The notes under the pieces: generated by a model
Databases searched by the model: none
What the model was told of the DNA's origin: nothing
What the model saw: only the letters and a program-made list of their open reading frames with translations
Assembly: GCA_964618705.1 (NCBI GenBank)
Contig: CAZUBJ010000001.1
Coordinates: 2,050-66,049, forward strand
Direction of reading: 5' to 3'
Source of the DNA: an uncultured Candidatus Saccharibacteria bacterium
GTDB lineage: Bacteria; Patescibacteriota; Minisyncoccia; Phycocordibacterales; Phycocordibacteraceae
DNA: 64,000 bases
Part shown: positions 5,790 to 57,357 of the stretch, piece after piece
Numbering within the stretch: the stretch's first letter is position 1
Layout of the letters: each line of letters begins with the position of its first letter
Position numbers and translations under genes: made by a program

Positions 5790-7412
5790 CTATTCCTTCG
5801 CTTTCTTGGGATTTTTCTTCTTCGTAATACGAAGGGGCTTAATCTCCGGGATCGTCGATTCAGGCCGTGCGTGCGTATCCAGATAGCTTCGAATATGACG
5901 TCGAGCAATACTTGTGCGCGCGTAGTCGTGCCATTTTGCCGTTGGGCGAGCGTTCTTACTTTTAATGATTTCTATAATGTCGCCGTTCTTAAGTTCGGTA
6001 TCAAACGAAACCAGCTTCCCATTTATTTTTGCACCCTGCATATGCTCTCCCAGGTCGCTATGAATTGCGAAGGCAAAGTCCACGGGGGTCGAACCGGTGG
6101 GAAGGTCAATCACGTCACCACGAGGTGAGAAGACAAAAATGCGATGCGAAAAGAAGTCAGTCTTAAGTCCTTCTACAAATTCGCTCGACTCCGCAACCTT
6201 TGCGTGCGCATCAGCAAGTTCGGTGAGCCATCCAGGTGTCGGAGCCACCTTTCCGTTCGCAGACGCCGCCTCGTGTGTTGGACGTTTAATATTCATGAGA
6301 TTTGGGAGAAGGTCGCGAATCCAAGGAATGGAGAGCTTCTGCACAGAACCCTGTTTAGCATTTCGTCCAAGTGCCTTATAGGAACCATGAGAAGCAATAC
6401 CAAACTCTGCCTGCTCGTGCATTTCGTTGGTACGAATCTGAATCTCTACAATACCTGCCTCAGGTGTTACGAGCGTGGTGTGAAGTGACTGGTACCCGCT
6501 TGAAGGTTTTGGTACGGCTATATAGTCCTTAAACTCTCCAGGAAGCGGCTTCCATAATGAGTGAAGTACTCCAAGTGCGGTGTAGGCATCCGGTACGGTG
6601 GGCACAATGATACGAAGTGCCGCAATGTCGTGAATTTTTGTGATGTCGTCCCCCTTACGCTTTAGTTTTTGATGCAGGCTCCATAGGCCTTTCATGCGGA
6701 TGCCCGTCTTAAAGTCACGCATGCCTTTACGCGCAAGCGCATGACGCACTTCCTTCTGAACTTTCACAAGGCCCGCCTCTGTTTCTTTTGCAGCTAGCTT
6801 TCGTACTTCAATGGCATGATGGTACGCATCCTCGTCAATAAACGGGAACGCCATGTCCTCAAAGTCCTTTCGAATGCGTCCCATGCCAAGACGATCGGCA
6901 AGTGGGGCATAAATCTCGAGTGTTTCGAGCGCTATACGTCTGCGCTTCTCCACAGGAACATGCTCAAGCGTGGTCATGTTGTGGTAGCGGTCCGCTAATT
7001 TAACAATAAGCACGCGCACATCAGCCGCGGTCGCTACTAGAAGGCGTCTCAAACTCTCTGCGTGGCGCTCTGTGCCCTGATACTTGTGCTGGCCGAGCTT
7101 GGTAACACCTTGCACTAAAAACAGCACCTCAGGGCCAAATTCAGCCGACACTTCTTCGTCAGTGACTTGCGTGTCTTCGATAGCGTCGTGCAGGAGTGCT
7201 GCGGCAACGGTCGGTGCGTCGAGTCCCAACTCAGCCAGGTGCTTAGCAACTGCGCTCGGATGTATAAAATAGGGCTCGCCCGAATAACGAGTGTGTCCCT
7301 CGTGCGCCTTCTTTGCAAAATCGTATGCTTTTTCTACGAGCGCTTTATCGAGAGCGCTCAGGTTAGTCATTTGGGCCAGTATTTCCTTGACCGTCGTCAT
7401 GGTCTTTAGCAT
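5790..7412 (-). CDS. rel: Bifunctional (p)ppGpp synthetase/hydrolase Rel (RelA/SpoT homolog, short 540-aa form)
   Basis: The HD hydrolase motifs (HLAELGLDAPTVAAALLHDAIEDT) and the synthetase domain (RIKDFEDMAFP..., YQSLHTTL) are present, followed by a TGS-like region. Confidence 0.85.
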   Translation of the reverse strand: MLKTMTTVKEILAQMTNLSALDKALVEKAYDFAKKAHEGHTRYSGEPYFIHPSAVAKHLAELGLDAPTVAAALLHDAIEDTQVTDEEVSAEFGPEVLFLVQGVTKLGQHKYQGTERHAESLRRLLVATAADVRVLIVKLADRYHNMTTLEHVPVEKRRRIALETLEIYAPLADRLGMGRIRKDFEDMAFPFIDEDAYHHAIEVRKLAAKETEAGLVKVQKEVRHALARKGMRDFKTGIRMKGLWSLHQKLKRKGDDITKIHDIAALRIIVPTVPDAYTALGVLHSLWKPLPGEFKDYIAVPKPSSGYQSLHTTLVTPEAGIVEIQIRTNEMHEQAEFGIASHGSYKALGRNAKQGSVQKLSIPWIRDLLPNLMNIKRPTHEAASANGKVAPTPGWLTELADAHAKVAESSEFVEGLKTDFFSHRIFVFSPRGDVIDLPTGSTPVDFAFAIHSDLGEHMQGAKINGKLVSFDTELKNGDIIEIIKSKNARPTAKWHDYARTSIARRHIRSYLDTHARPESTIPEIKPLRITKKKNPKKAKE

Positions 7413-7807
7413 ACTGCTCTAATCCGTTTGCGACAAACGGTAACCAGTTTACTGCGTACGCAGTTGTAAAAAATGTAAGCAAATTGCGAGGAGAGTTCTT
7501 TTGAGACCGTTACTGAGTAAGGCTCCATCGCACTGCGGAAAGTGTGGTGGTGTGCACCGTGCCATTCACGGCAAGCGCGTGAATGCGCAGGGAGTTCGAC
7601 TGCTGTGCGAGGAACCCGACACTATCGAGTTTGAGATCGACACCCCGTCATCGCCCTACGTAACGCCGCTTCCTGCCACGGTTGCGGCCTAAGCGAAGAG
7701 CCCGCACCCTATCGGGGCGGGCTCATGCTATGTGTGCCGTTGACTGCGACCAAAACCGCGCTATAGTCCAATTGTTCCACTCGTTTTAACGCAAGGAGAC
7801 TCGAGCC

Positions 7808-7975
7808 ATGCAGTACTGCACTGATTGCGGACAAATGGTGCTGGTGCCTTGCAAGAGCAAGGACCATCCCGAGATTGAGCGTGTGTTTTGCCCCAAACGG
7901 CGAACCATGATTTCCTTCGAACCGGTCATTCCGTCGAAGGTGCTCGCGTTCAATCGCGCCCTGCAAGCGGCCTAG
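7808..7975 (+). CDS. Small zinc-ribbon protein (55 aa, C-x2-C ... C ... C). It is under 60 aa, so it does not appear in the ORF track.
   Basis: It starts at ATG 7808 with an AAGGAG SD 9 nt upstream. The translation is MQYCTDCGQMVLVPCKSKDHPEIERVFCPKRR..., with four Cys. A hairpin terminator follows at 8015-8042. Confidence 0.35.
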   Translation: MQYCTDCGQMVLVPCKSKDHPEIERVFCPKRRTMISFEPVIPSKVLAFNRALQAA

Positions 7976-8014
7976 CCGCCTGCGCCCATCGGCCCTTCGT
8001 GGGCCCACAACAAG

Positions 8015-8042
8015 CCGCCGCGATTCGAAAGAGTCGCGGCGG
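8015..8042. terminator. Hairpin terminator (CCGCCGCGA-N10-TCGCGGCGG) 10 nt downstream of the topA stop. It also closes the small plus-strand ORF.
   Basis: The inverted repeat is 9 bp and is followed on the plus strand by TATCTACTTTTAT. Confidence 0.5.
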
Positions 8043-8051
8043 TATCTACTT

Positions 8052-10454
8052 TTATGCGAGGTAGCTTGCTGCTTCTTCGGGCGAGAGCGTATCGGCGTCA
8101 ATACTTTCGGGAAGCGATATGCGACGGAGCCCCTTTTTGAGGAAGTAGCCAGACTTTGATTTATAGAGCGTCAGCGTCTTTCCGGTCTTTGGGTGCTTTC
8201 CAATCTCGCGCACAATGGTCACGCCCTTTGGTGGAAGTTTTGGCTCGGCAAGCACTGCCACTGCACGTTCCAGTGTAATGGTATACGGGTCGTCGCCCTT
8301 CTTAAGGGAACGGAACTCGCCATCGTGACCGATGTACGGGCCAAAGCGTCCGATGTTTGCAATCATCGTTTTGCCCGTGTCAGGGTGCGCCCCCAACTCG
8401 CGTGGAAGTGAGAGGTAGTGCAGAGCAAGTTTCAAATCAACCGTATCAAGTGGAACTCCTGCGGGAATACTTGCACGACGAAGTTCTGGCTTGGGCTCTG
8501 CTGGCTTCTTCGGCTTTCGCTTGCTTGGCTTGCCGCTTTTGGTAAGGAGCGGAACGTCCTCGGCCGGCGCAACTTCCTTTGGAGGAAGCACCAACTCCAC
8601 GTACGGACCAAAGCGGCCCGTCTTTACATAAATGGGGCTACCTGTAGCAGGGTCAGTGCCAATTGGTTCGTCCGGCTTTACTTCGGTCCCGTCTTCTTGG
8701 CGCGCACCTTCACATTCAGGATAGCGGGTACAACTCATAAAGATACCTCCACGTCCGAGCTTGAACTCCATGGACGCACTACATAACGGACAGGTGAACT
8801 CCGCAGGCACGGCGCCAAGTGAGGTTGCCTTTGGCAGATCCTCCTTGCTCGCTACGGCCTTGGCAAACGGGGTGTAGAACTCCTTGAGCGTCTCTGCGTA
8901 TCCGCGCTCACCGCGAGCAATCTCGTCGAGCTCGTTCTCCATTTCCGCGGTGAATGAATCAGAAACATACTCGGCAAAGTGTTCTTCAAGCCATCCTGAA
9001 ACCACCATACCGGTTGCCGTTGGCGTGAGTGTGCGACCGGTCTTCTCCACGTAACCGCGATCTTGAATGGTCTTCATGATGCTTGCGTAGGTAGATGGTC
9101 TGCCGATACCACGCTTCTCAAGCTCCTTCACAAGTCCAGCTTCAGTGTAGCGATTTGGTGGTTCGGTTTGCTTTTCAAGCGAGCCAAGTTTAATAACGTC
9201 GACGGATTCGCCGACAGTCAGCAATGGAAGTTCAACGTCCTCGCCACGTGCACGCGTATCACACGCAAGCCATCCTGGAGAAATGAGACGGGAACCATTT
9301 GTGCTGAAAAGGGGAATATCCGCCTCCGCTTTAATCTTCACAGCAGTGCGCAGCATGCGCGCGGCCTTCATTTGTGAGGCAAGGGTACGTGCTCGGATAA
9401 GCTCGTAGAGCGCCTGCTCGTCTCCTGGTGTACCAGCACGAGCTCGGGCAGGGTCAGTTGGACGTACGGCTTCGTGCGCCTCCTGTGCATTCTTGCTGGT
9501 TGTCTTATATGCACGAGTCTCGACGTTAGCTGCACCAAATTCTTTTGATACTACCTCGGCAATCTTTGTCACTGCGTCCTTTGCAAGATTTACTGAGTCG
9601 GTACGCATGTAGGTGATGTGTCCTGCCTCATACAGCTTCTGCGCTGCACGCATAGTGCGGCTTGGAGAGAAGCCAAGACGAGTTGACGCGACCTGTTGCA
9701 GTGTAGAAGTGGTGAATGGTGGACGTGGCTTTCGTTCCTCCTCGCGCTCAGTAATATCGCTGATGCTCCAACTGCTTGCACGACCAAGCGTGACGATGCG
9801 TGTCGCTTCTTCGCTCGTGGTTGGCTCTACGGTGCACGCCGCAGGAATGTCCCCGCCCGTTGCATGGAATACAGCGTCGAGTGAGTAGTACGTCTCGGGA
9901 ACAAACGCCTGAATCTCGCGTTCGCGCTCAGCTAGGATGCGAAGTGCAGGGGATTGCACGCGACCTGCTGAGAGCCCGTAGCGCACCTTCTTCCAGATAA
10001 GGCCCGAGAGATCGTAGCCCACAAGTCGGTCTAGCACGCGGCGTGCCTCCTGTGCTTTGCGGAGATTCTCATCAATCTCGCGAGGGTGCTTGAGTGCTTC
10101 CTCCACCGCATTCTTAGTAATTTCGTAAAACACCACGCGCTTCGGATGCTTCATACCCACTGCCTCCTTAACGTGCCAGGCAATGGCTTCACCTTCACGG
10201 TCGGGGTCAGTCGCAAGGAAAATCTCGTCTGCTTTTTTTGCCGCCGTAACGATACGTTCAATTACGTCGCGCTTGTCCGGGGAAACAACGTAGCGCGGCG
10301 TAAATCCATTCTCAATATCGACCGCATCCTTGTTTGTTTTAGGGAGGTCGCGCACGTGACCTACGGATGCCAATACTTCATAGCCAGTACCAAGGTACTG
10401 GCCAATCGTGCGTGCTTTTGCGGGAGACTCTACAATAAGAAGTTTCTTTGCCAT
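8052..10454 (-). CDS. topA: DNA topoisomerase I
   Basis: MAKKLLIVESPAKARTIG marks the Toprim domain, YITYMRTDS carries the catalytic Tyr, and the C-terminus has Zn-ribbon-like Cys and Lys-rich repeats. I chose the start at MAKKLL (ATG 10454). Confidence 0.9.
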   Translation of the reverse strand: MAKKLLIVESPAKARTIGQYLGTGYEVLASVGHVRDLPKTNKDAVDIENGFTPRYVVSPDKRDVIERIVTAAKKADEIFLATDPDREGEAIAWHVKEAVGMKHPKRVVFYEITKNAVEEALKHPREIDENLRKAQEARRVLDRLVGYDLSGLIWKKVRYGLSAGRVQSPALRILAEREREIQAFVPETYYSLDAVFHATGGDIPAACTVEPTTSEEATRIVTLGRASSWSISDITEREEERKPRPPFTTSTLQQVASTRLGFSPSRTMRAAQKLYEAGHITYMRTDSVNLAKDAVTKIAEVVSKEFGAANVETRAYKTTSKNAQEAHEAVRPTDPARARAGTPGDEQALYELIRARTLASQMKAARMLRTAVKIKAEADIPLFSTNGSRLISPGWLACDTRARGEDVELPLLTVGESVDVIKLGSLEKQTEPPNRYTEAGLVKELEKRGIGRPSTYASIMKTIQDRGYVEKTGRTLTPTATGMVVSGWLEEHFAEYVSDSFTAEMENELDEIARGERGYAETLKEFYTPFAKAVASKEDLPKATSLGAVPAEFTCPLCSASMEFKLGRGGIFMSCTRYPECEGARQEDGTEVKPDEPIGTDPATGSPIYVKTGRFGPYVELVLPPKEVAPAEDVPLLTKSGKPSKRKPKKPAEPKPELRRASIPAGVPLDTVDLKLALHYLSLPRELGAHPDTGKTMIANIGRFGPYIGHDGEFRSLKKGDDPYTITLERAVAVLAEPKLPPKGVTIVREIGKHPKTGKTLTLYKSKSGYFLKKGLRRISLPESIDADTLSPEEAASYLA

Positions 10455-52093: not shown

Positions 52094-52541
52094 TATTTTC
52101 CATAATGGGTGTAGATTTGCACTTACGCCCGGCTGCGGAGAAATCCGGTAAGCTTGGCGTCGCTCGCGGGCCTCGACATGAGAAGAGGCTCGCCGCTGCC
52201 CAGAACGGGTTTGCACACGTATCAACCGAGGAAAACCTACGCTCACTTGTGGGTATAGGGGGAAGCAGGAGGTTGCGTGGTCAATAAGGATAACTAAGAC
52301 GCCACTCCTCGCAACGTCGAGGAAGGGTGGAGGAAACCACGGAAGGGAGGAAGCGAATGCACAAACAAACTGCGTAGTGCGTGAGAGTGCTCTTGCTCGA
52401 GCAGGGACAGTCTCACGCGCTCCGCGAAATGACTTCTGGCGTCATATGCCAATGAAGTTGTGTTCTTCAATACAAACGGTTACCGACAGGGGCCCGCGCA
52501 ACGCGCACATGGCCCGAGGAACGTAGGGACCGAAGAAGAAC

Positions 52542-52566
52542 AGGCCGGACTTAAAAACTCCGGCCT
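52542..52566 (+). terminator. Hairpin plus T-rich tail (AGGCCGGA-N10-TCCGGCCT TTCGCATTTCC) immediately upstream of ddl
   Basis: An 8-bp GC stem lies 32 nt before the ddl ATG, at the end of a ~500-nt non-coding region. Confidence 0.4.
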
Positions 52567-52597
52567 TTCGCATTTCCATACTGGTATACTCACTACT

Positions 52598-53563
52598 ATG
52601 AAAGGCACGGTAGTTGCAGTTCTTCGGGGCGGTCCTTCACGCGAACATGACGTGTCGCTGAAGTCGGGCCACACTATTCTCACCCACCTTCCTCGTGAGC
52701 AGTTCATGCCGCGCGACATTTACATAGATAGACAGGGGATTTGGCACGAGCGCGGTATACCTACCACGCCAGAGCGCGTGCTACGAGGCACTGACGTGGT
52801 CCTTCTTGGGCTCCATGGGGAATATGGCGAGGATGGCGAGGTGCAGAAGCTGCTGGAGAAGTTTGGTGTGCCGTATGCAGGTACCAAATCTTTTGAGTCT
52901 TATGTTGCCATGCACAAGATGCTGTCTAAACAGAAGGCGATACATGCAGGATTGCTCACGCCAAAGTTTGCATATGTTGAAGAGTCGTCTGACATTGCGC
53001 AGGTAGCGCGCGAAGTGAATCGCACCTTCTTGCAGCCGGTCATTGTAAAGCCGGTGAAGTGGGGCTCGTCTGTGGGCGTGTCGTTTGTACATGGCTATGC
53101 GCCCCTTGAGGCTGCCGTACGCAAGCTTATGGAGGAAGGAGCAGGTGGAGTGCTTATCGAGGAGGTGATTCGCGGAACTGAGGCCACGGTGGGAGTCGTG
53201 GAGGGACTGCGGGGTGAGGCACTCTATGGCCTGCCGCCTGTAGAGATCATTCCGCCCGAGAAGGACTTCTTTTCGTACGACGCAAAGTACTCGGGAAGCT
53301 CTCGTGAGATATGCCCAGCGCGATTGCCTCGCAACATTACCGACGAGCTTATTCGCCACGCAAAGACCATGCATGGGGAATTGGGACTTCGCCACTACTC
53401 CCGTTCTGATTTCATTGTTTCTCCAAAGGGTATTTACTACCTGGAAACAAACACTCTGCCAGGGCTTACGCAGGAGTCCCTGTTCCCGAAGTCTTTGGCT
53501 TCAGTGGGGGTCACCTTGCCCGACTTTTTCACCCACCTTGCGGGTCTAGCGCTCACCAAATAG
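52598..53563 (+). CDS. ddl: D-alanine--D-alanine ligase
   Basis: The ATP-grasp domain has HGEYGEDGEVQKLLE and GSSVGV, plus the C-terminal ETNTLPGL. I chose the start at ATG 52598. Confidence 0.85.
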   Translation: MKGTVVAVLRGGPSREHDVSLKSGHTILTHLPREQFMPRDIYIDRQGIWHERGIPTTPERVLRGTDVVLLGLHGEYGEDGEVQKLLEKFGVPYAGTKSFESYVAMHKMLSKQKAIHAGLLTPKFAYVEESSDIAQVAREVNRTFLQPVIVKPVKWGSSVGVSFVHGYAPLEAAVRKLMEEGAGGVLIEEVIRGTEATVGVVEGLRGEALYGLPPVEIIPPEKDFFSYDAKYSGSSREICPARLPRNITDELIRHAKTMHGELGLRHYSRSDFIVSPKGIYYLETNTLPGLTQESLFPKSLASVGVTLPDFFTHLAGLALTK

Positions 53564-53616: not shown

Positions 53617-53689
53617 GGGCCGTTAGCTCAGTTGGTAGAGCATCTCATTTTCAATGAGAGGGTCGCAGGTTCGAATCCTGTACGGTCCA
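53617..53689 (+). tRNA. tRNA with anticodon TTC (Glu by anticodon)
   Basis: It folds as acceptor GGGCCGT/ACGGTCC, D-arm GCTCAGTTGGTAGAGC, anticodon arm TCTCA-TTTTCAA-TGAGA, T-arm GCAGG-TTCGAAT-CCTGT and discriminator A. The isotype is inferred from the anticodon only. Confidence 0.7.
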
Positions 53690-53819
53690 CACCATAAAGT
53701 TCGAACATGTCACGGCGGCCTTTTGGTCGCTTTTGACGGTTTTTGAGCGCAGGATCAGCAGCAGGGAGTTGTCCAGGCGGTGTCCGCTCGTACGGTGTTA
53801 GTAGTGATACAGTATTGGT

Positions 53820-54239
53820 GTGAATCCATTCGAGCGACCAACACAACCTAAACCTTCCAACAGCGCAGAGGTCGCCCTTCAAGGCGTTGCAAGCCAGCAC
53901 GATTCCCTCGCGCGTGAGCACGCGTATCAAGCGCAATATGAAAGTGAGATTCTCCCGCTTCTGCGCGACGCTGAGAGGCTTCAGATCAATTTGGGGGTGG
54001 CTGAGCAGAAGCTTCGCGGCGCAGAGCTCAAGAGCCCAAATCAACCGGAAATACTTGCGCTTCAGAAGCAACTCCGCGCTCTACGGGGAGAACCCGAGCT
54101 AGACACTGTTCCTGGCAACGATAGTGCACTCACTGCTGCTCAATTGGAGTACGACACGGCCAAGACCGCACTGGAGGCTACGAGGAACGAGATAGCCGAG
54201 CGAACTGCTGAGCTACGTCGCGCCCACGGGCTCAGTTAG
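53820..54239 (+). CDS. Hypothetical coiled-coil protein (139 aa)
   Basis: The ORF lies downstream of the tRNA at about 55% GC. I recognise no family. Confidence 0.3.
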   Translation: MNPFERPTQPKPSNSAEVALQGVASQHDSLAREHAYQAQYESEILPLLRDAERLQINLGVAEQKLRGAELKSPNQPEILALQKQLRALRGEPELDTVPGNDSALTAAQLEYDTAKTALEATRNEIAERTAELRRAHGLS

Positions 54240-54559
54240 ATGTCTTTCTCGTGCTGCTGCTTCATCCTTGTCAACTCAGAGGCCCTTGCAATTCCGACCT
54301 AACTTGCGAGAATTGAAGAAGAACGACTGACCTTGAGATTTCTCCCGAGGCCAGACGTTCGCAGGTCTTTGCGCTCCAAATGTCAGTCGACTTTCGGCAC
54401 CGGTGCCGAGCGTGCTCGGCAGTCTGACGATGCGCCCAAATGCGACTAAACAGAACTACGAGCTTGTCCATGTGGACAATTCTCCTTGGTCGGCAGCCTC
54501 CCCTTAGGTTGGTACCCTCGGAGACTTAGTCTCCGGTTGGTGGGGTTGCTGATTAGGAT

Positions 54560-54593
54560 GGGCCTCCGCTTTCGAGCGGGGGCCCAGTTTTTT
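54560..54593 (+). terminator. Strong rho-independent terminator (GGGCCTCCGCT-TTCG-AGCGGGGGCCC plus AGTTTTTTG)
   Basis: An 11-bp stem is followed by a T6 tract. There is no confident CDS upstream between 54240 and 54560. Confidence 0.6.
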
Positions 54594-54982
54594 GTGCCGC
54601 CCGATTCGAAAAGGAGGGGTGGTGGACTGCAGCTGGCCTCACTGTCTTTCACTTAGGCGTTCCACGCTTCTCACGCTCCTCTCGGATGGCGATGCGCAGC
54701 AAGACTCGTACAAATTCATACAGTCGTTCGCGCGCCTCGACACGCTCAACAAGTGTGGCGTCAGGCATGTATTTGTAGATGAGGTGGGCTCCTGGTGGGC
54801 AAATGCACTTTGGTGTTGTTGTCATACCGCCGCAGTATGCAGAATTGCCTACCAGGCCGCTAGTCGGTCATCAGTGTCTTCATACTTCAGACTCTGTTCT
54901 ATCGAGGACAAAAGGGACTTCATGTCTGGACTTTGGGGAGGTCGAACCTGGGCCCGAGCTGGTCCACAAACGACATTTGAAA

Positions 54983-55007
54983 GCCCCGAAAGGGGCTTTT
55001 GTCGTTT
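54983..55007 (+). terminator. Hairpin terminator (GCCCCGAAAGGGGC plus TTTTGTCGTTT) nested inside a longer palindrome (AAACGACA...TGTCGTTT)
   Basis: A perfect GNRA-type hairpin (GAAA loop) with a T-tract sits in a non-coding stretch. Confidence 0.5.
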
Positions 55008-55160
55008 GCGGGCCGTAGCAGAGTGTCTGCACACTCTGCGGCAGGATTCGAAAGTGGTTGAGTATGTCGCAACGAGTTCGAAGCTTTGTGAGAACGACGT
55101 GAGACACGAGACCCACACCGTTCCTGTAAGGAAAGGATCCTGTACGGTCGAAATTCAAAA

Positions 55161-55185
55161 AGGCCCGGACATTCATCCGGGCCTT
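55161..55185 (-). terminator. Rho-independent terminator for the ECF sigma gene (AGGCCCGGA-N7-TCCGGGCCT plus a TTTTTGAATTT tail on the minus strand)
   Basis: A 9-bp stem lies 19 nt downstream of the sigma stop on the minus strand. Confidence 0.6.
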
Positions 55186-55203
55186 GCGCATGTGCGCGAG
55201 TGA

Positions 55204-55683
55204 TTATTGCGTCGCCGCTATGAGCTGTTCGCGTCCGAGTCGGAAGTAGCCCTTCACGGTGCCGTGCGGTCGCTTCAGAATTGCCGCAATTTCCGAGTCC
55301 GAGAACCCGATGCTTCCGAGCAGAATCGCCTTTCGGCGATCAGACTGCATGTTCGCCACGTACGCGAGCACTTCTGTGAGCTCTACCTGCACTTCCTGGA
55401 CCGCTTCGGTGCGGTCGCTGTTCAAGCGCAGTCGGGAGAGCATCCGCCCCTCCGTCCTTTCCTTGCGGATGGAGTCAATGAACAAGCGCTTCATAATCAC
55501 CTGTGCCCAGGGCAAGAGCTCTCGGGTAGGGTCGTATGCGCTCCGTTGATCGAGCAGTTTGGCGACGGTGGTCTGCACCAGGTCTTCTGCGCGTTCACGG
55601 TGGCGGGTCAGCTTCTTCGCGTAGTTGCGCAGTGCGCTATAGGTCGCCAGTATCCGGCGACCATACTCAACTTCGTTTTGCAT
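55204..55683 (-). CDS. ECF (sigma-70 family) RNA polymerase sigma factor
   Basis: Region 2 is DLVQTTVAKLL...WAQVIMKRLFIDSIRKE and region 4 is the HTH SDSEIAAILKRPHGTVKGYFRLGREQL. I chose the start at ATG 55683 with an AGGAGG SD 5 nt upstream. Confidence 0.75.
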   Translation of the reverse strand: MQNEVEYGRRILATYSALRNYAKKLTRHRERAEDLVQTTVAKLLDQRSAYDPTRELLPWAQVIMKRLFIDSIRKERTEGRMLSRLRLNSDRTEAVQEVQVELTEVLAYVANMQSDRRKAILLGSIGFSDSEIAAILKRPHGTVKGYFRLGREQLIAATQ

Positions 55684-55770
55684 GGTTGCCTCCTTCTGGC
55701 TATCCACAACCTACAGCACATATTCTGGAGACGCCAGAGCCCCACTGTGCGCAGTGCTACTATTACCCCA

Positions 55771-57357
55771 ATGCTTCGGCGCATCATTGCCACTATAGAG
55801 TCCTCATCACTCACCCTGTATTCATTCATGGGTGCAGTGGCGGGAGTCGTCTTTCTCCGTTTCTTCCTAGAATCCTTTAGCGCCCGCACCCCTACGGGTT
55901 TTGTCGCAAGCGACGCGCCCACACTCGTTCACTACGGACTCTTCTTCCTGGCAGCGCTCCTATTGCATACACTCATCGTTGCGTTTGTGACGCGCGAGAA
56001 GATGCTCACTGTGCTCAAAATCAGCACGTACGCACTCCCGCTCATCCTGATTGCTCCGATCATCGACATATTCATGGGTGGGGGAACGATGGCGTATTTG
56101 ATACAGCCACTGCCAGAGCTGATTGCAGACTTCCTCACATTCTTTGGTCCACTACAGGGCTCAGGTGCTACGGTGGGTATTCGTATTGAGCTTGCCATAG
56201 TGCTTGCGGGTCTTGGAACTTATATATGGCTCAAGACTGCCAGTGTGTGGCGTACCGCGCTTGGCGTGTTTCTCTCCTATGTGGTGGTGTTTGGCATGGG
56301 CGCATGGCCAAGCCTGGTAGCCATTGCCACTGGCGGCACCGCGCATGTGATGTTCCTGGCAAGTGACTTGAGCAGCTCACTCATTGCACGCTCGTTCCTA
56401 CACCCAAGCGAGGTGTACAGCGGATTCCGTCTTCTTGAGATGTACTTCAGTGCCTACATGGCGCAGAGCATGTTCCTCCTCTCGCTTATCTGTGGCTACT
56501 TTGTACTGCGCTCTATTTCTCCACGCGTGGTGAAAGCAGTGAAGGCGAACATGCGCCCGCTACGTCTACTAAACTATATGGCGCTGGCGACACTGGGCTT
56601 TTTGCTTGCGCTCTACTTCGCTCCTATCACCTGGTCTGTCTACGACGTCATTACGGTGCTTGTCGCGTTTTCCTGTATCAAGCTTCTGTGGGTCTTTGCG
56701 GTCACCGCAAACGATTTGGGAGACGAAGATATCGACCGTATTTCAAATGCTTCCCGCCCTCTTATTACGGGTGCGATGAGTCGAACCGAAATGATCCAGG
56801 TCGCCGTAGGAGCTCTTATATTGGTGATTTTGGGAGGTCTCTCGCTTGGGTCCTATTCGCTGTTCTATCTCCTTATATATGTAGCCATCGTTGTGGTGTA
56901 CTCGTTCCCGCCACTGCGCCTGCGCCGATTCCCTGTGGTGTCGCACATGCTCATTGGCTTTGCGTGCCTGTGCATGGTCCTCATGGGATTCTTTCTCGCT
57001 TCACCCGCGCGCGAACTTGCGGCATTCCCACCATACGCTGCGCTTCTCGTTGTCATTATTTTTACGCTTGGACTTAACTTGAAAGATTTGAAGGACGAAG
57101 CGGGAGACCGAGCCGCAGGTGTGGTCACCATAGCGACGCTACTTGGTGCGAAGCGCGCACAGTATGTGATTGCTGCATTACTGTTTGTGGCAGCATTGCT
57201 TGTGCCATTTATGCTGCAGGAGCCGTCACTTTGGATTCCGTGCATTGTAAGCGGCGCCATTGTTGCCGCTGGAGTAGCGAAAGGGAAGCGGGAAAAGTTT
57301 GTTTTTGTAATCTATTTCTTATTTGTGCTGTACCTGATATTCAGACTGGTGGCATAG
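55771..57357 (+). CDS. Polytopic membrane protein: N-terminal ~240-aa multi-TM domain fused to a C-terminal UbiA-family prenyltransferase-like domain
   Basis: The C-terminal half carries UbiA Asp-rich motifs NDLGDEDIDRI (NDxxDxxxD) and KDLKDEAGDRAAG (DxxDxxxD). It has more than 12 TM helices. The track ORF start (55207) overlaps the sigma gene on the opposite strand, so I chose ATG 55771. Confidence 0.55.
   Translation: MLRRIIATIESSSLTLYSFMGAVAGVVFLRFFLESFSARTPTGFVASDAPTLVHYGLFFLAALLLHTLIVAFVTREKMLTVLKISTYALPLILIAPIIDIFMGGGTMAYLIQPLPELIADFLTFFGPLQGSGATVGIRIELAIVLAGLGTYIWLKTASVWRTALGVFLSYVVVFGMGAWPSLVAIATGGTAHVMFLASDLSSSLIARSFLHPSEVYSGFRLLEMYFSAYMAQSMFLLSLICGYFVLRSISPRVVKAVKANMRPLRLLNYMALATLGFLLALYFAPITWSVYDVITVLVAFSCIKLLWVFAVTANDLGDEDIDRISNASRPLITGAMSRTEMIQVAVGALILVILGGLSLGSYSLFYLLIYVAIVVVYSFPPLRLRRFPVVSHMLIGFACLCMVLMGFFLASPARELAAFPPYAALLVVIIFTLGLNLKDLKDEAGDRAAGVVTIATLLGAKRAQYVIAALLFVAALLVPFMLQEPSLWIPCIVSGAIVAAGVAKGKREKFVFVIYFLFVLYLIFRLVA

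What the first reader, a model, noticed from the sequence alone, without database searches (positions are those of the whole stretch)
53690..55203. A 1.5-kb region downstream of tRNA-Glu with almost no confident CDS but several strong terminators and nested hairpins: candidate ncRNA locus or integration remnant
After tRNA-Glu (53617-53689) there is only one weak ORF (53820-54239). The track ORFs beyond it are Cys/Trp-rich and overlapping, and look spurious.

The DNA holds a textbook intrinsic terminator at 54560-54593 (11-bp stem plus T6). It also holds a nested palindrome with a GAAA-loop hairpin and T-tract (54971-55007), a 9-bp hairpin (55018-55039) and the sigma-gene terminator (55161-55185).

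A terminator with no upstream CDS within about 320 nt suggests a non-coding transcript of a few hundred nt ending at about 54593. tRNA 3' flanks are classic integration sites, so a decayed mobile element is the alternative.

I looked for tmRNA motifs (5' GGGG..TCGAC, tag reading frame, 3' T-arm-CCACCA) and RNase P motifs (GGAAAGTCCGGGC, ACAGAACCCGGCUUA) and could not find them. The identity of any RNA stays open.
Basis: seen in the sequence. Interest (0 to 1): 0.5.

Follow-up and report, generated by a model that had tools for sequence, protein, structure and literature searches.

The report
Small islet inserted behind a tRNA
This 1.5-kb stretch is mainly a small piece of mobile DNA carrying two tiny protein genes, inserted exactly at the end of a tRNA gene, followed by the worn-down remains of a structured RNA element that trails tRNA genes in this group of ultra-small bacteria.

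Summary
The hairpins and terminators are real, but "almost no CDS" is wrong and the ncRNA idea is unsupported where it was proposed.

- **Insertion.** The closest relative (L001) runs straight from the tRNA into window 54961-55052. Window 53692-54960 (1.27 kb) is therefore an insertion at the tRNA 3' end, flanked by GGTCCACA repeats.
- **Genes.** It carries two conserved orphan genes: ORF139 (53820-54239 +) and ORF58 (54649-54825 -).
- **Spacer.** A lineage-specific 409-bp hairpin-rich spacer holds the strong terminator.
- **Recombinase.** The islet has none.
- **Mobility.** A 99%-identical copy sits between different flanks in another assembly (L227). Relatives hold tandem islets with the same ends but other cargo, and large serine recombinase elements at the same tRNA.
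- **Trailer remnant.** Window 54961-55152 is the displaced original tRNA trailer. It is a decayed copy of a structured RNA family absent from Rfam. In 56 distinct sequences, all 26 pairs show compensatory changes. The family trails tRNA genes of at least 15 types in metagenomes, and its closing helix repeats the 3' end of its own tRNA.
- **The tRNA.** "tRNA-Glu" is a tRNA-Ala body (G3:U70) with one anticodon change (TGC to TTC) that L227 lacks.

The parts
53617..53690 (+). tRNA gene with a tRNA-Ala body (G3:U70) and anticodon TTC. It serves as the attachment site of the islet.
   Evidence: ARAGORN and Rfam. Relatives carry the same tRNA with TGC. L227 has G at 53651.
53684..53691 (+). Left direct repeat GGTCCACA (the tRNA 3' end plus CA).
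   Evidence: The L001 alignment breaks here. The repeat occurs again at 54961-54968.
53692..54960 (.). Inserted islet of 1269 bp with no recombinase gene.
   Evidence: Absent from L001. About 99% identical in L227 between different flanks. Family-specific ends recur in L003, L004, L005, L011, L042, L049, L060 and L063.
53692..53744 (+). Conserved left end of the islet (CCATAAAGTTCGAACATGTCACGGC). It includes the hairpin GCGGCC-TTTT-GGTCGC (53715-53730) and T-rich runs, probably a replacement terminator for the tRNA.
   Evidence: 47 nt are 85% identical to two sites in L004, and related to L005, L011, L042, L060 and L063. The terminator role is inferred.
53820..54239 (+). ORF139, a conserved orphan protein predicted to be a helical-hairpin coiled coil.
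   Evidence: Homologues P0002-P0004 and L004. Differences are biased to third codon positions. AlphaFold2 pLDDT 83. No Pfam, PHROG or PADLOC match.
54240..54648 (.). Lineage-specific hairpin-rich spacer between the two convergent genes.
   Evidence: Absent in L004 and L064; replaced by 3.5 kb of other cargo in L063. Fold z-scores -3.5 (+) and -4.1 (-). No homologue found in any fetched locus; the whole islet finds no match in phage records.
54559..54593 (+). Strong intrinsic terminator (12-bp stem, then a T run), probably ending the ORF139 transcript.
   Evidence: The assignment to ORF139 is inferred.
54649..54825 (-). ORF58, a conserved small protein (CxCPPGAH..YKYMP..RLYEFVRV) predicted as a short helix plus a long basic helix.
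   Evidence: Homologues in L004 (75%), L227 (100%) and L064 (74%, with an in-frame stop). AlphaFold2 pLDDT 83.
54937..54968 (+). Conserved right end of the islet (GGTCGAACCTGGGCCCGAGCT), followed by the right direct repeat GGTCCACA (54961-54968).
   Evidence: 96.5% identical to L063 9971-9999. Related ends occur in L003, L004, L005, L042 and L064.
54961..55054 (+). Original tRNA trailer. It holds a long nested hairpin (54967-55008), then GGGCCGTA (the same sequence as the tRNA's own 5' acceptor strand; pairs with its 3' end with a G-U at position 3), the hairpin 55018-55039 with a CUGC-containing loop, and CAGGATTCGAAAG. Together these form the 5' shell of a tRNA-trailer RNA element.
   Evidence: 97.8% identical to L001 7081-7172, against about 85% in flanking genes. 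The same layout occurs in L044, L019 and L015, with covarying stems.
55055..55136 (+). Degenerate interior. The conserved core of the RNA family is missing here.
   Evidence: R1 with filters off matches only the closing helix (15.9 bits; 67 core positions absent). A type-II HMM matches only 17 nt. Window 55085-55155 equals L113 6737-6807, which there lies after a complete element.
55137..55149 (+). Second exact copy of the tRNA 3' end (ATCCTGTACGGTC), forming the 3' strand of the closing helix.
   Evidence: 0.02 expected by chance. The same arrangement occurs in L001, L009, L014, L019, L020 and L033.
55160..55185 (-). Terminator of the ECF sigma factor gene (55204-55707, - strand). Not part of the islet.
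   Evidence: 97.9% identical to L001.

Best explanation
The region is a tRNA-anchored integration hot spot in a Patescibacteria (Paceibacterota-like) genome.

**The islet.** A 1.27-kb cassette-like islet (53692-54960) has recombined into the CA that follows ...GGTCCA at the 3' end of the tRNA-Ala-derived gene. It brought its own copy of GGTCCACA and a small hairpin that probably replaces the tRNA's terminator. Its cargo is two convergent orphan genes: ORF139, a coiled-coil protein, and ORF58, a small basic helical protein. The genes are separated by a 409-bp hairpin-rich spacer. The strong terminator in that spacer most likely ends ORF139 transcription.

**How it moves.** The islet has no recombinase. 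I infer it is moved in trans by a site-specific recombinase. The best candidate type is the large serine recombinase, which sits at this same tRNA in three relatives. Such islets can pile up in tandem.

**The displaced trailer.** The insertion pushed the tRNA's original trailer 1.27 kb downstream (54961-55152). That trailer is a remnant of a structured RNA family that follows tRNA genes. Its outer helix is built from an inverted and a direct copy of the tRNA's own 3' end. Here the conserved core is lost.

**Shown:** the insertion, the repeats, the coding status of ORF139 (for ORF58, only conservation of the protein), the horizontal spread, family membership of the relatives' trailers, and the loss of the core here.

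**Inferred:** the recombinase type, the terminator assignments, and any function of the genes or of the RNA family.
For: 1. **Empty site.** In L001 (Ddl 98% aa identical) the tRNA is followed directly by the equivalent of window 54961-55052. The two alignments overlap by exactly GGTCCACA.
2. **Repeats.** GGTCCACA occurs at both junctions. The right end also carries a T-loop-like TCGAAC motif.
3. **Horizontal spread.** L227, an independent assembly, holds the tRNA plus islet. I count 11 differences across the 1269-bp islet, with a single SNP across 53652-54846. Its leader upstream of the tRNA does not align, and its hairpin after GGTCCAC is different, followed by intact RNA elements.
4. **A family of islets.** The same left end (..TGTCACGGC..) and right end (TTCGAAC..GGTCCAC) bound islets with different cargo. 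L063 carries a KAP NTPase matching PADLOC PDC-S49 at 3e-20, followed by a second islet with a STAND-like ATPase. L004 holds two islets in tandem. L005, L011, L042 and L060 hold others.
5. **Recombinases use this tRNA.** L002, L006 and L034 carry large serine recombinase genes abutting the tRNA-Ala. L002 and L034 match Resolvase + Recombinase + Zn_ribbon_recom and phrog_95; L002 also has Prim-Pol. L006 rests on a tblastn match to the L002 protein (28% over 481 residues, 3e-29).
6. **Real genes.** ORF139 shows third-position bias and a conserved 139-aa length. ORF58 is 75% identical in L004 at about 68% DNA identity.
7. **The trailer.** The 92 nt at 54961-55052 are 97.8% identical to L001, against about 85% in the neighbouring genes. 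L001's copy is a member of the RNA family (R1 35.9 bits, E about 1e-7). The window's copy keeps only the closing helix.
Against: - No recombinase was found in the islet, in any islet of this family, or in the 64-kb window. The mechanism of movement is therefore inferred.
- The serine recombinase elements in L002, L006 and L034 have different ends from this islet family.
- The direct repeat is only 8 bp, and that 8-mer occurs 4 times in the window. On its own it is weak; the argument rests on the empty site and on L227.
- G+C content of the islet does not differ from its surroundings.
- The 409-bp spacer is more structured than shuffled sequence. An RNA function for it cannot be excluded.
- No expression data are available.
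Confidence: 0.8

Rival explanations
1. An independent small non-coding RNA gene lies in 54240-54593 and ends at the strong terminator. It could coexist with the islet as part of its cargo.
For: There is a strong terminator with no CDS in the 320 nt upstream. The stretch folds better than shuffles (z -3.5), with a long imperfect hairpin at 54487-54548 just before the terminator.
Against: No promoter-like site was found, and no Rfam match at E <= 10. No homologue exists anywhere except the near-identical L227, so there is no conservation or covariation signal. Related islets (L004, L064) lack the stretch entirely and L063 has protein-coding cargo there. The terminator is equally well explained as the end of the ORF139 mRNA.
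Confidence: 0.15
2. The 1.27 kb is ancestral and was deleted in L001-like genomes. The repeats would then be the substrate or scar of deletion, not of integration.
For: Short direct repeats can mediate deletions. The G+C content is native-like.
Against: ORF139 has a tblastn match in only one (L004) of the 62 relatives fetched with Ddl, and many run from the tRNA straight into a simple terminator or an RNA-family trailer. L227 has a near-identical islet between unrelated flanks. Tandem islets share ends. Cargo differs between identical ends.
Confidence: 0.05
3. The stretch 54961-55152 is still a working member of the tRNA-trailer RNA family, of a divergent subtype. That RNA would then be the functional heart of the region.
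For: The shell is intact and 97.8% identical to L001. The closing helix and exact repeat are present. The fold z-score is -2.8. The interior resembles a segment of L113 (84.5%).
Against: The conserved core motifs (GnCGGAG .. CGAGnCGGGG.CG .. GUGACC) are absent. The matching L113 segment lies outside its complete element. The islet now separates this stretch from the tRNA.
Confidence: 0.1
4. The hairpins are ordinary terminators and chance palindromes in a gene-poor intergenic region. Nothing was inserted and nothing is structured for a purpose.
For: Several hairpins are terminator-like.
Against: The empty site, the conserved ends, the conserved genes, the 13-nt exact tRNA-end repeat (0.02 expected by chance) and the covarying relatives all contradict this.
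Confidence: 0.02

Closest known systems
Genomic islands and islets integrated at the 3' end of tRNA genes, especially recombinase-less derivatives such as cis-mobilizable elements (CIMEs) and tandem island arrays (own knowledge; Williams 2002 on tRNA/tmRNA integration sites is recalled, not read here; islands in Patescibacteria are reported in PMC12455944)
   Same: Insertion exactly at the tRNA 3' end with the tRNA end duplicated. An empty site exists in a relative. Islets with shared ends but different cargo accumulate in tandem. Some cargo resembles phage-defence genes. The islet lacks its own integrase, as CIMEs do.
   Different: It is very small (1.27 kb, two orphan genes). The repeat is only 8 bp. 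No autonomous parent element with the same ends has been found, so the recombinase is unknown. The setting is a CPR genome, where such cassette-like islets have not, to my knowledge, been described.
Integron gene cassettes and integrase-less cassette arrays (own knowledge)
   Same: Short one-to-three-gene units stacked head to tail at one site. Each is bounded by a roughly 55-bp junction with inverted symmetry (TTCGAAC .. GGTCCAC .. TTCGAA). No recombinase is present locally.
   Different: There is no attC R-box/L-box consensus and no integron integrase or attI. The anchor is a tRNA gene. The gene orientations are mixed. The resemblance is architectural only and was not tested further.
Large serine recombinase (phiC31/Bxb1-type) integrative elements
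   Same: Elements with such recombinases occupy the same tRNA-Ala 3' end in L002, L006 and L034. A minimal repeat at the junction fits a crossover at a central dinucleotide.
   Different: The window's islet has no such gene, and its ends differ from those of the L002 and L006 elements.
tmRNA and other tRNA-like RNAs (YrlA, viral tRNA-like structures), as a comparison for the trailer RNA family
   Same: The 5' and 3' ends pair into an acceptor-like helix that copies a tRNA, with G3:U70 in most tRNA-Ala-linked copies. A GGAUUCGA motif resembles the tmRNA D-loop region. The remaining domain is inserted between the two strands.
   Different: There is no separate T-arm: the T-stem is formed by the two ends. 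There is no conserved tag reading frame. ARAGORN and Rfam tmRNA/YrlA models find nothing. The family is multi-copy and linked to at least 15 different tRNA types. The GGAUUCGAA motif is explained by being the inverted copy of the palindromic T-loop.
RNAs released from tRNA operon trailers or spacers (E. coli RtT RNA, 3'ETS-leuZ; own knowledge)
   Same: The position is immediately downstream of, or between, tRNA genes.
   Different: Those RNAs have no conserved three-way-junction core and do not copy the tRNA's 3' end. Rfam RtT does not match.

Membership tests
tRNA-targeting integrative island/islet | Present/absent polymorphism with a precise empty site in a relative | tested here: met
   L001 joins the tRNA directly to the equivalent of window 54961.
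tRNA-targeting integrative island/islet | Direct repeat of the tRNA 3' end at both junctions | tested here: met
   GGTCCACA lies at 53684-53691 and 54961-54968. It is short (8 bp).
tRNA-targeting integrative island/islet | Element-encoded integrase or recombinase | tested here: not met
   No recombinase domain in any ORF of the islet. The two serine-recombinase queries find no match in the 64-kb window (tyrosine recombinases were not searched). No recombinase among the ORFs of related islets that were scanned; other ORFs listed were not scanned. The islet is therefore filed as a non-autonomous islet.
tRNA-targeting integrative island/islet | Evidence of horizontal movement | tested here: met
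   L227 has a 99%-identical islet between non-homologous flanks. Cargo differs between identical ends in L063.
tRNA-targeting integrative island/islet | Atypical base composition | tested here: not met
   G+C is 0.53-0.58, like the surroundings. This is not required for exchange within a clade.
Independent sRNA gene | Own promoter, a terminator, and conservation or covariation in relatives | tested here: not met
   A terminator is present. No promoter-like site was found. No homologues exist outside the near-identical L227. No Rfam match.
tmRNA | tRNA-like domain with a T-arm and CCA end, a tag reading frame, and detection by ARAGORN or the Rfam tmRNA models | tested here: not met
   ARAGORN finds none in the window or 13 loci. 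No Rfam tmRNA model matches at E <= 5-10. Hand translation of the frames in the sequences (no tool run) showed no conserved tag frame.
tRNA-trailer structured RNA family (model R1, defined here) | Conserved core: GnCGGAG, hairpin, CGAGnCGGGG.CG, hairpin, GUGACC, enclosed by the closing helix | tested here: not met
   Window 55042-55142 scores 15.9 bits on the closing helix only. The type-II HMM aligns 17 nt. The L001 orthologue scores 35.9 bits. Window 4184-4014 (-) does match (E 1.3e-5).
tRNA-trailer structured RNA family (model R1, defined here) | Closing helix made of an inverted and a direct copy of the 3' end of the upstream tRNA | tested here: met
   GGGCCGTA..CAGGATTCGAA lies at 55010-55052, and ATCCTGTACGGTC at 55137-55149. 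Across the family the median exact repeat is 12 nt, against 5 in controls.
tRNA-Glu | Anticodon UUC on a tRNA-Glu body | tested here: not met
   The anticodon is TTC. The body differs by one base from the tRNA-Ala(TGC) of L227 and carries G3:U70. That AlaRS reads G3:U70 and not the anticodon is established knowledge, not tested here.

The most novel reading that the evidence does not exclude
The remnant at 54961-55152, and the better copy behind tRNA-Leu at about 4218-3992 (-), belong to an undescribed class of structured RNA elements. These trail tRNA genes in Patescibacteria, and each element's closing helix is tailored to its own tRNA: an inverted plus a direct copy of that tRNA from the T-loop to the 3' end, including CCA where it is encoded.

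The most novel reading has two forms. The elements could be functional tRNA mimics, cut out by RNase P and the 3'-end enzymes, possibly CCA-tailed or even aminoacylated. Alternatively, they could be elements that copy tRNA ends by a templated mechanism. In either case, by duplicating the tRNA 3' end they would create secondary attachment sites that shape where islets like this one land. In L001, a 1.75-kb insert sits right after the second copy of the tRNA end.
Probability: 0.4. Interest if true: 0.8.

Novelty: new member of a known kind. Interest (0 to 1): 0.5.

Why it matters
**For annotation.** The region should carry two protein genes, an islet boundary and a corrected tRNA identity, rather than 'ncRNA candidate'.

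**For biology.**
- Ultra-small CPR genomes keep a tRNA-anchored hot spot where tiny recombinase-less cassettes, some with defence-like cargo, are swapped between strains. This gives a concrete handle (conserved end sequences) for finding the recombinase that moves them.
- The work uncovered a well-supported structured RNA family, absent from Rfam, that shadows tRNA genes and mimics their ends. If functional, it bears on how tRNA transcripts are processed or exploited in organisms with minimal RNA-processing machinery.
- The anticodon change, if real, would make an alanine-charged tRNA read glutamate codons.

Tried and rejected
- **tmRNA and RNase P.** ARAGORN and Rfam were negative. The tmRNA-like GGAUUCGA motif turned out to be the inverted T-loop. 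Candidate tag frames were not conserved.
- **Viral contigs.** A scan for the core motif returned only reverse-complement tRNA genes.
- **Phage records.** No match to the islet.
- **ORF139 and ORF58.** No Pfam, PHROG or PADLOC match. Foldseek on both AlphaFold2 models gave only generic coiled coils and helices.
- **Other ORFs in the region** (66, 68, 56, 103, 89, 203, 147 and 79 aa). No protein-level homologues. Their tblastn hits reflect tRNA and trailer DNA conservation.
- **Exact-sequence look-up of P0001.** Not on record.
- **Att-like motifs inside the 409-bp spacer** (GTGGTGGAC, AGCTGGCCTCAC). These are suggestive by eye, but BLAST shows no similarity to islet ends, so the idea was left as inconclusive.
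- **Genes next to stand-alone copies of the RNA family.** No recurrent neighbour was found; neighbours include a beta-lactamase, a glycosyltransferase and UvrC.
- **Literature.** Searches for a described tRNA-trailing RNA in CPR found nothing relevant.
- **Loop-loop pairing.** A possible kissing interaction between the CUGC loop and the CAGCAG loop was not consistent across members.
Full report
**Setting.** The window comes from a Patescibacteria (CPR) genome close to Paceibacterota/Kaiserbacteria-type MAGs. I used the D-Ala-D-Ala ligase gene just upstream (52460-53563; Pfam) to fetch 62 related loci. The best is L001, with 98% amino-acid identity. Downstream of the region lies an ECF sigma factor gene on the minus strand (55204-55707).

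**Checking the observation.**
- The tRNA (53617-53690, anticodon TTC) is real.
- So is the strong + strand terminator at 54559-54593, and the sigma terminator at 55160-55185.
- The nested hairpin at 54967-55008 and the 8-bp hairpin at 55018-55039 are in the sequence.
- Terminator-like sites are about twice as frequent as in shuffles: 7 against 3.0 +/- 1.8.
- Rfam at E <= 10 finds only the tRNA, and ARAGORN finds no tmRNA.

The claim of 'almost no confident CDS' does not hold.
- ORF139 (53820-54239 +) has full-length homologues of 137-139 aa. These are P0002 (84%), P0003 (74%), P0004 (71%) and an L004 copy (54%).
- Differences against three of them fall at codon positions 1/2/3 as 15/7/47, 24/14/67 and 27/21/75. 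This is the signature of a protein under purifying selection.
- A second gene on the other strand, ORF58 (54649-54825 -), is 75% identical at protein level in L004 and 100% in L227. In L064 it carries an in-frame stop.
- Neither protein matches Pfam, PHROGs or PADLOC.
- AlphaFold2 predicts a helical-hairpin coiled coil for ORF139 and a short helix plus a long helix for ORF58, both at pLDDT 83. Neither has an informative structural neighbour.

**The central result: an insertion.**
- In L001 the tRNA (L001 7004-7088) is followed immediately by the equivalent of window 54961-55052 (L001 7081-7172). The two alignments overlap by exactly GGTCCACA.
- Window 53692-54960 (1269 bp) is therefore extra DNA sitting at the tRNA's 3' end, between two copies of GGTCCACA.
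- An independent assembly (L227, 1755 nt) carries the tRNA plus islet. I count 11 differences in the 1269-bp islet, and one SNP across 53652-54846.
- The L227 leader upstream of the tRNA does not align with the window. After GGTCCAC it continues into a different hairpin and intact RNA elements.
- Near-identity inside and divergence outside, with breakpoints at the repeat, argue for recent site-specific movement rather than vertical descent or deletion.

**A family of islets.**
- The first 40 nt or so of the islet (CCATAAAGTTCGAACATGTCACGGCGGCC..) recur in relatives. So do its last 30 nt or so (TCGAACCTGGGCCCGAGCTGGTCCAC). They appear at the same tRNA in L003, L004, L005, L011, L042, L049, L060, L063 and L064.
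- L004 has two islets in tandem. The second carries the ORF139/ORF58 pair directly convergent.
- L063 starts with ORF139 and ends with the same right end (96.5% identical). In between it carries a KAP-family NTPase matching the candidate defence family PDC-S49 (3e-20) plus two more ORFs. A second islet follows, with a STAND-like ATPase.
- No islet of this family encodes a recombinase. The two serine-recombinase queries also found no match in the 64-kb window.
- The same tRNA-Ala is nevertheless used by bona fide integrative elements. L002 (Ddl 96% identical), L006 and L034 carry large serine recombinase genes abutting it. L002 and L034 match Resolvase + Recombinase + Zn_ribbon_recom; L006 rests on tblastn similarity to the L002 protein.
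- I therefore read the islet as a non-autonomous, cassette-like element moved in trans. A serine recombinase is the leading candidate, but this step is inferred.

**The 409-bp spacer and its terminator.**
- Window 54240-54648 is present, and identical, only in the window and L227. It is absent from L004 and L064, where the two genes abut. In L063 it is replaced by other cargo.
- It folds more stably than shuffles (z -3.5 and -4.1).
- It has no promoter-like site, no Rfam match and no homologue in any fetched locus; the whole islet has no match in phage records.
- The simplest role for the terminator is to end ORF139 transcription before it collides with convergent ORF58.
- A cargo sRNA cannot be excluded. 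I give it about 15%.

**The displaced trailer (54961-55152).**
- The first 92 nt are 97.8% identical to L001, while the flanking genes are about 85% identical.
- The layout is as follows:
  - a long hairpin;
  - GGGCCGTA (identical to the tRNA's own 5' acceptor strand; it pairs with the tRNA's 3' end with a G-U at position 3);
  - a hairpin with a CUGC-containing loop;
  - CAGGATTCGAAAG;
  - about 80 nt of interior;
  - an exact 13-nt copy of the tRNA 3' end at 55137-55149 (0.02 expected by chance).
- The same layout follows the tRNA-Ala in L001, L009, L014, L015, L019, L020, L033, L044, L046 and L059. It also follows the islets in L004.
- Alignment of these copies, and of metagenomic copies found with a motif scan, revealed a conserved three-way-junction core:
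  - closing helix CAGGAUUC/GAAUCCUG;
  - GAAAG;
  - a 3-bp helix GNC/GN'C enclosing GGAG-hairpin-CGAG;
  - GGGG.CG-hairpin-GUGACC.
- A covariance model (R1) finds 58 members in the sequence I hold. On these, 92% of cells are paired and all 26 pairs show compensatory changes. The covariation score is 0.58, against 0.17 for shuffles and at most 0.10 for slid partners. One caveat applies: the alignment is fitted to the model.
- 39 of 64 hits lie within 130 nt downstream of a same-strand tRNA gene of 15 different types. Several more are tandem second copies, or are separated from the tRNA by islets.
- In 27 of 38 tRNA-linked copies, the element's 3' end repeats at least 10 nt of its own tRNA's 3' end. 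The repeat reaches up to 21 nt and includes CCA where it is encoded. With mismatched tRNAs the median is 5 nt.
- Rfam 15 has no model that matches canonical members, and I found no description in the literature.
- The copy in the finding is a remnant. R1 with filters off matches only the closing helix (15.9 bits, 67 core positions missing). A type-II profile aligns only 17 nt. Window 55085-55155 corresponds to a segment that in L113 lies after a complete element.
- A better member sits elsewhere in the window, behind tRNA-Leu (4184-4014 -, E 1.3e-5).

**What the RNA family does is unknown.** Two readings fit.
- It may be a tRNA-mimicking RNA matured by tRNA-processing enzymes.
- It may be a dispersed selfish element whose structure, as RNA or single-stranded DNA, is conserved.

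Stand-alone copies have no recurrent neighbouring gene.

**The tRNA itself.**
- All relatives with a call at this position have tRNA-Ala(TGC).
- The window's gene differs in the anticodon loop by one base (CTCATTTGCAATGAG becomes CTCATTTTCAATGAG). It keeps the G3:U70 pair.
- L227, otherwise identical across the tRNA, has G at 53651.
- The 'tRNA-Glu' is therefore an anticodon variant of tRNA-Ala: either a real mutation or population variant, or a consensus error.
- Because alanyl-tRNA synthetase recognises G3:U70 and not the anticodon (established knowledge, not tested here), a real variant would insert alanine at GAA/GAG codons.

**Verdict.**
The ncRNA proposal is unsupported at the place proposed.
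- The main feature is a new member of a known kind: a recombinase-less islet at a tRNA gene.
- The by-product, a covariation-supported RNA family that copies tRNA ends, is the more novel lead. It deserves its own study.

Noticed in passing
window 53651 (anticodon 53650-53652): The 'tRNA-Glu(TTC)' is one base away from the tRNA-Ala(TGC) of all relatives and keeps G3:U70. The near-identical assembly L227 has G here. It is either a mistranslating anticodon mutant or a consensus error.
   Followed up: partly
window about 4218-3992 (-), downstream of tRNA-Leu(caa) 4325-4244: A better-preserved member of the same tRNA-trailer RNA family. It has an inverted copy of the tRNA-Leu 3' end (TGCCGGGGGAG..GGGACTTGAA), a type-II core (nhmmer E 1.3e-5; R1 E 0.044) and a degenerate direct repeat.
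   Followed up: partly
L001 about 7300-9049: The closest relative has 1.75 kb that the window lacks. It holds three ORFs, including an AAA_33-type kinase, inserted right after the second copy of the tRNA end (ATCCTGTACGGTCG). The duplicated tRNA end may act as a second insertion site.
   Followed up: partly
L002 3019-4680 (-), L006 7260-8615 (-), L034 7052-8533 (-): Large serine recombinase genes directly abut the tRNA-Ala in three relatives. L002 also has a Prim-Pol/AAA_25 gene, which suggests an integrated plasmid- or phage-like element.
   Followed up: partly
L063 6502-11563: Islets with the same ends as the window's carry a KAP NTPase matching PADLOC PDC-S49 (3e-20) and a STAND/AAA_16-like ATPase. 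The hot spot carries defence-like cargo.
   Followed up: partly
L030 8797-9037; L140 4267-5035; L212 3665-4036; L014 5848-6305; L227 (near its end): RNA-family members occur in tandem and between consecutive tRNA genes (for example tRNA-Val, element, tRNA-Pro). In L030 the tRNA-like helix is reduced to UUUGUGG/CCACAAA, shared with the flanking terminator-like hairpins.
   Followed up: partly
L064 3752-3913 (-): The ORF58 homologue there has an in-frame stop and was called as 41 aa. ORF58 is dispensable in at least one lineage.
   Followed up: no
window 55207-57357 (+): A 716-aa ORF starts antisense inside the sigma factor gene. Its true start is probably much further downstream, and the product looks like a multi-pass membrane protein. 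Not examined.
   Followed up: no
L046 about 7850-7870: The direct repeat at the end of this RNA element is cut short (CGAATCCTGTA|TTAATATT..). This suggests another insertion or rearrangement inside the repeat.
   Followed up: no
window 54847-54921: Ten of the 11 islet differences between the window and L227 cluster in the 75 nt upstream of ORF58, while the remaining 1.2 kb of the islet has one. This is a local hot spot of change in the presumed ORF58 promoter region.
   Followed up: no
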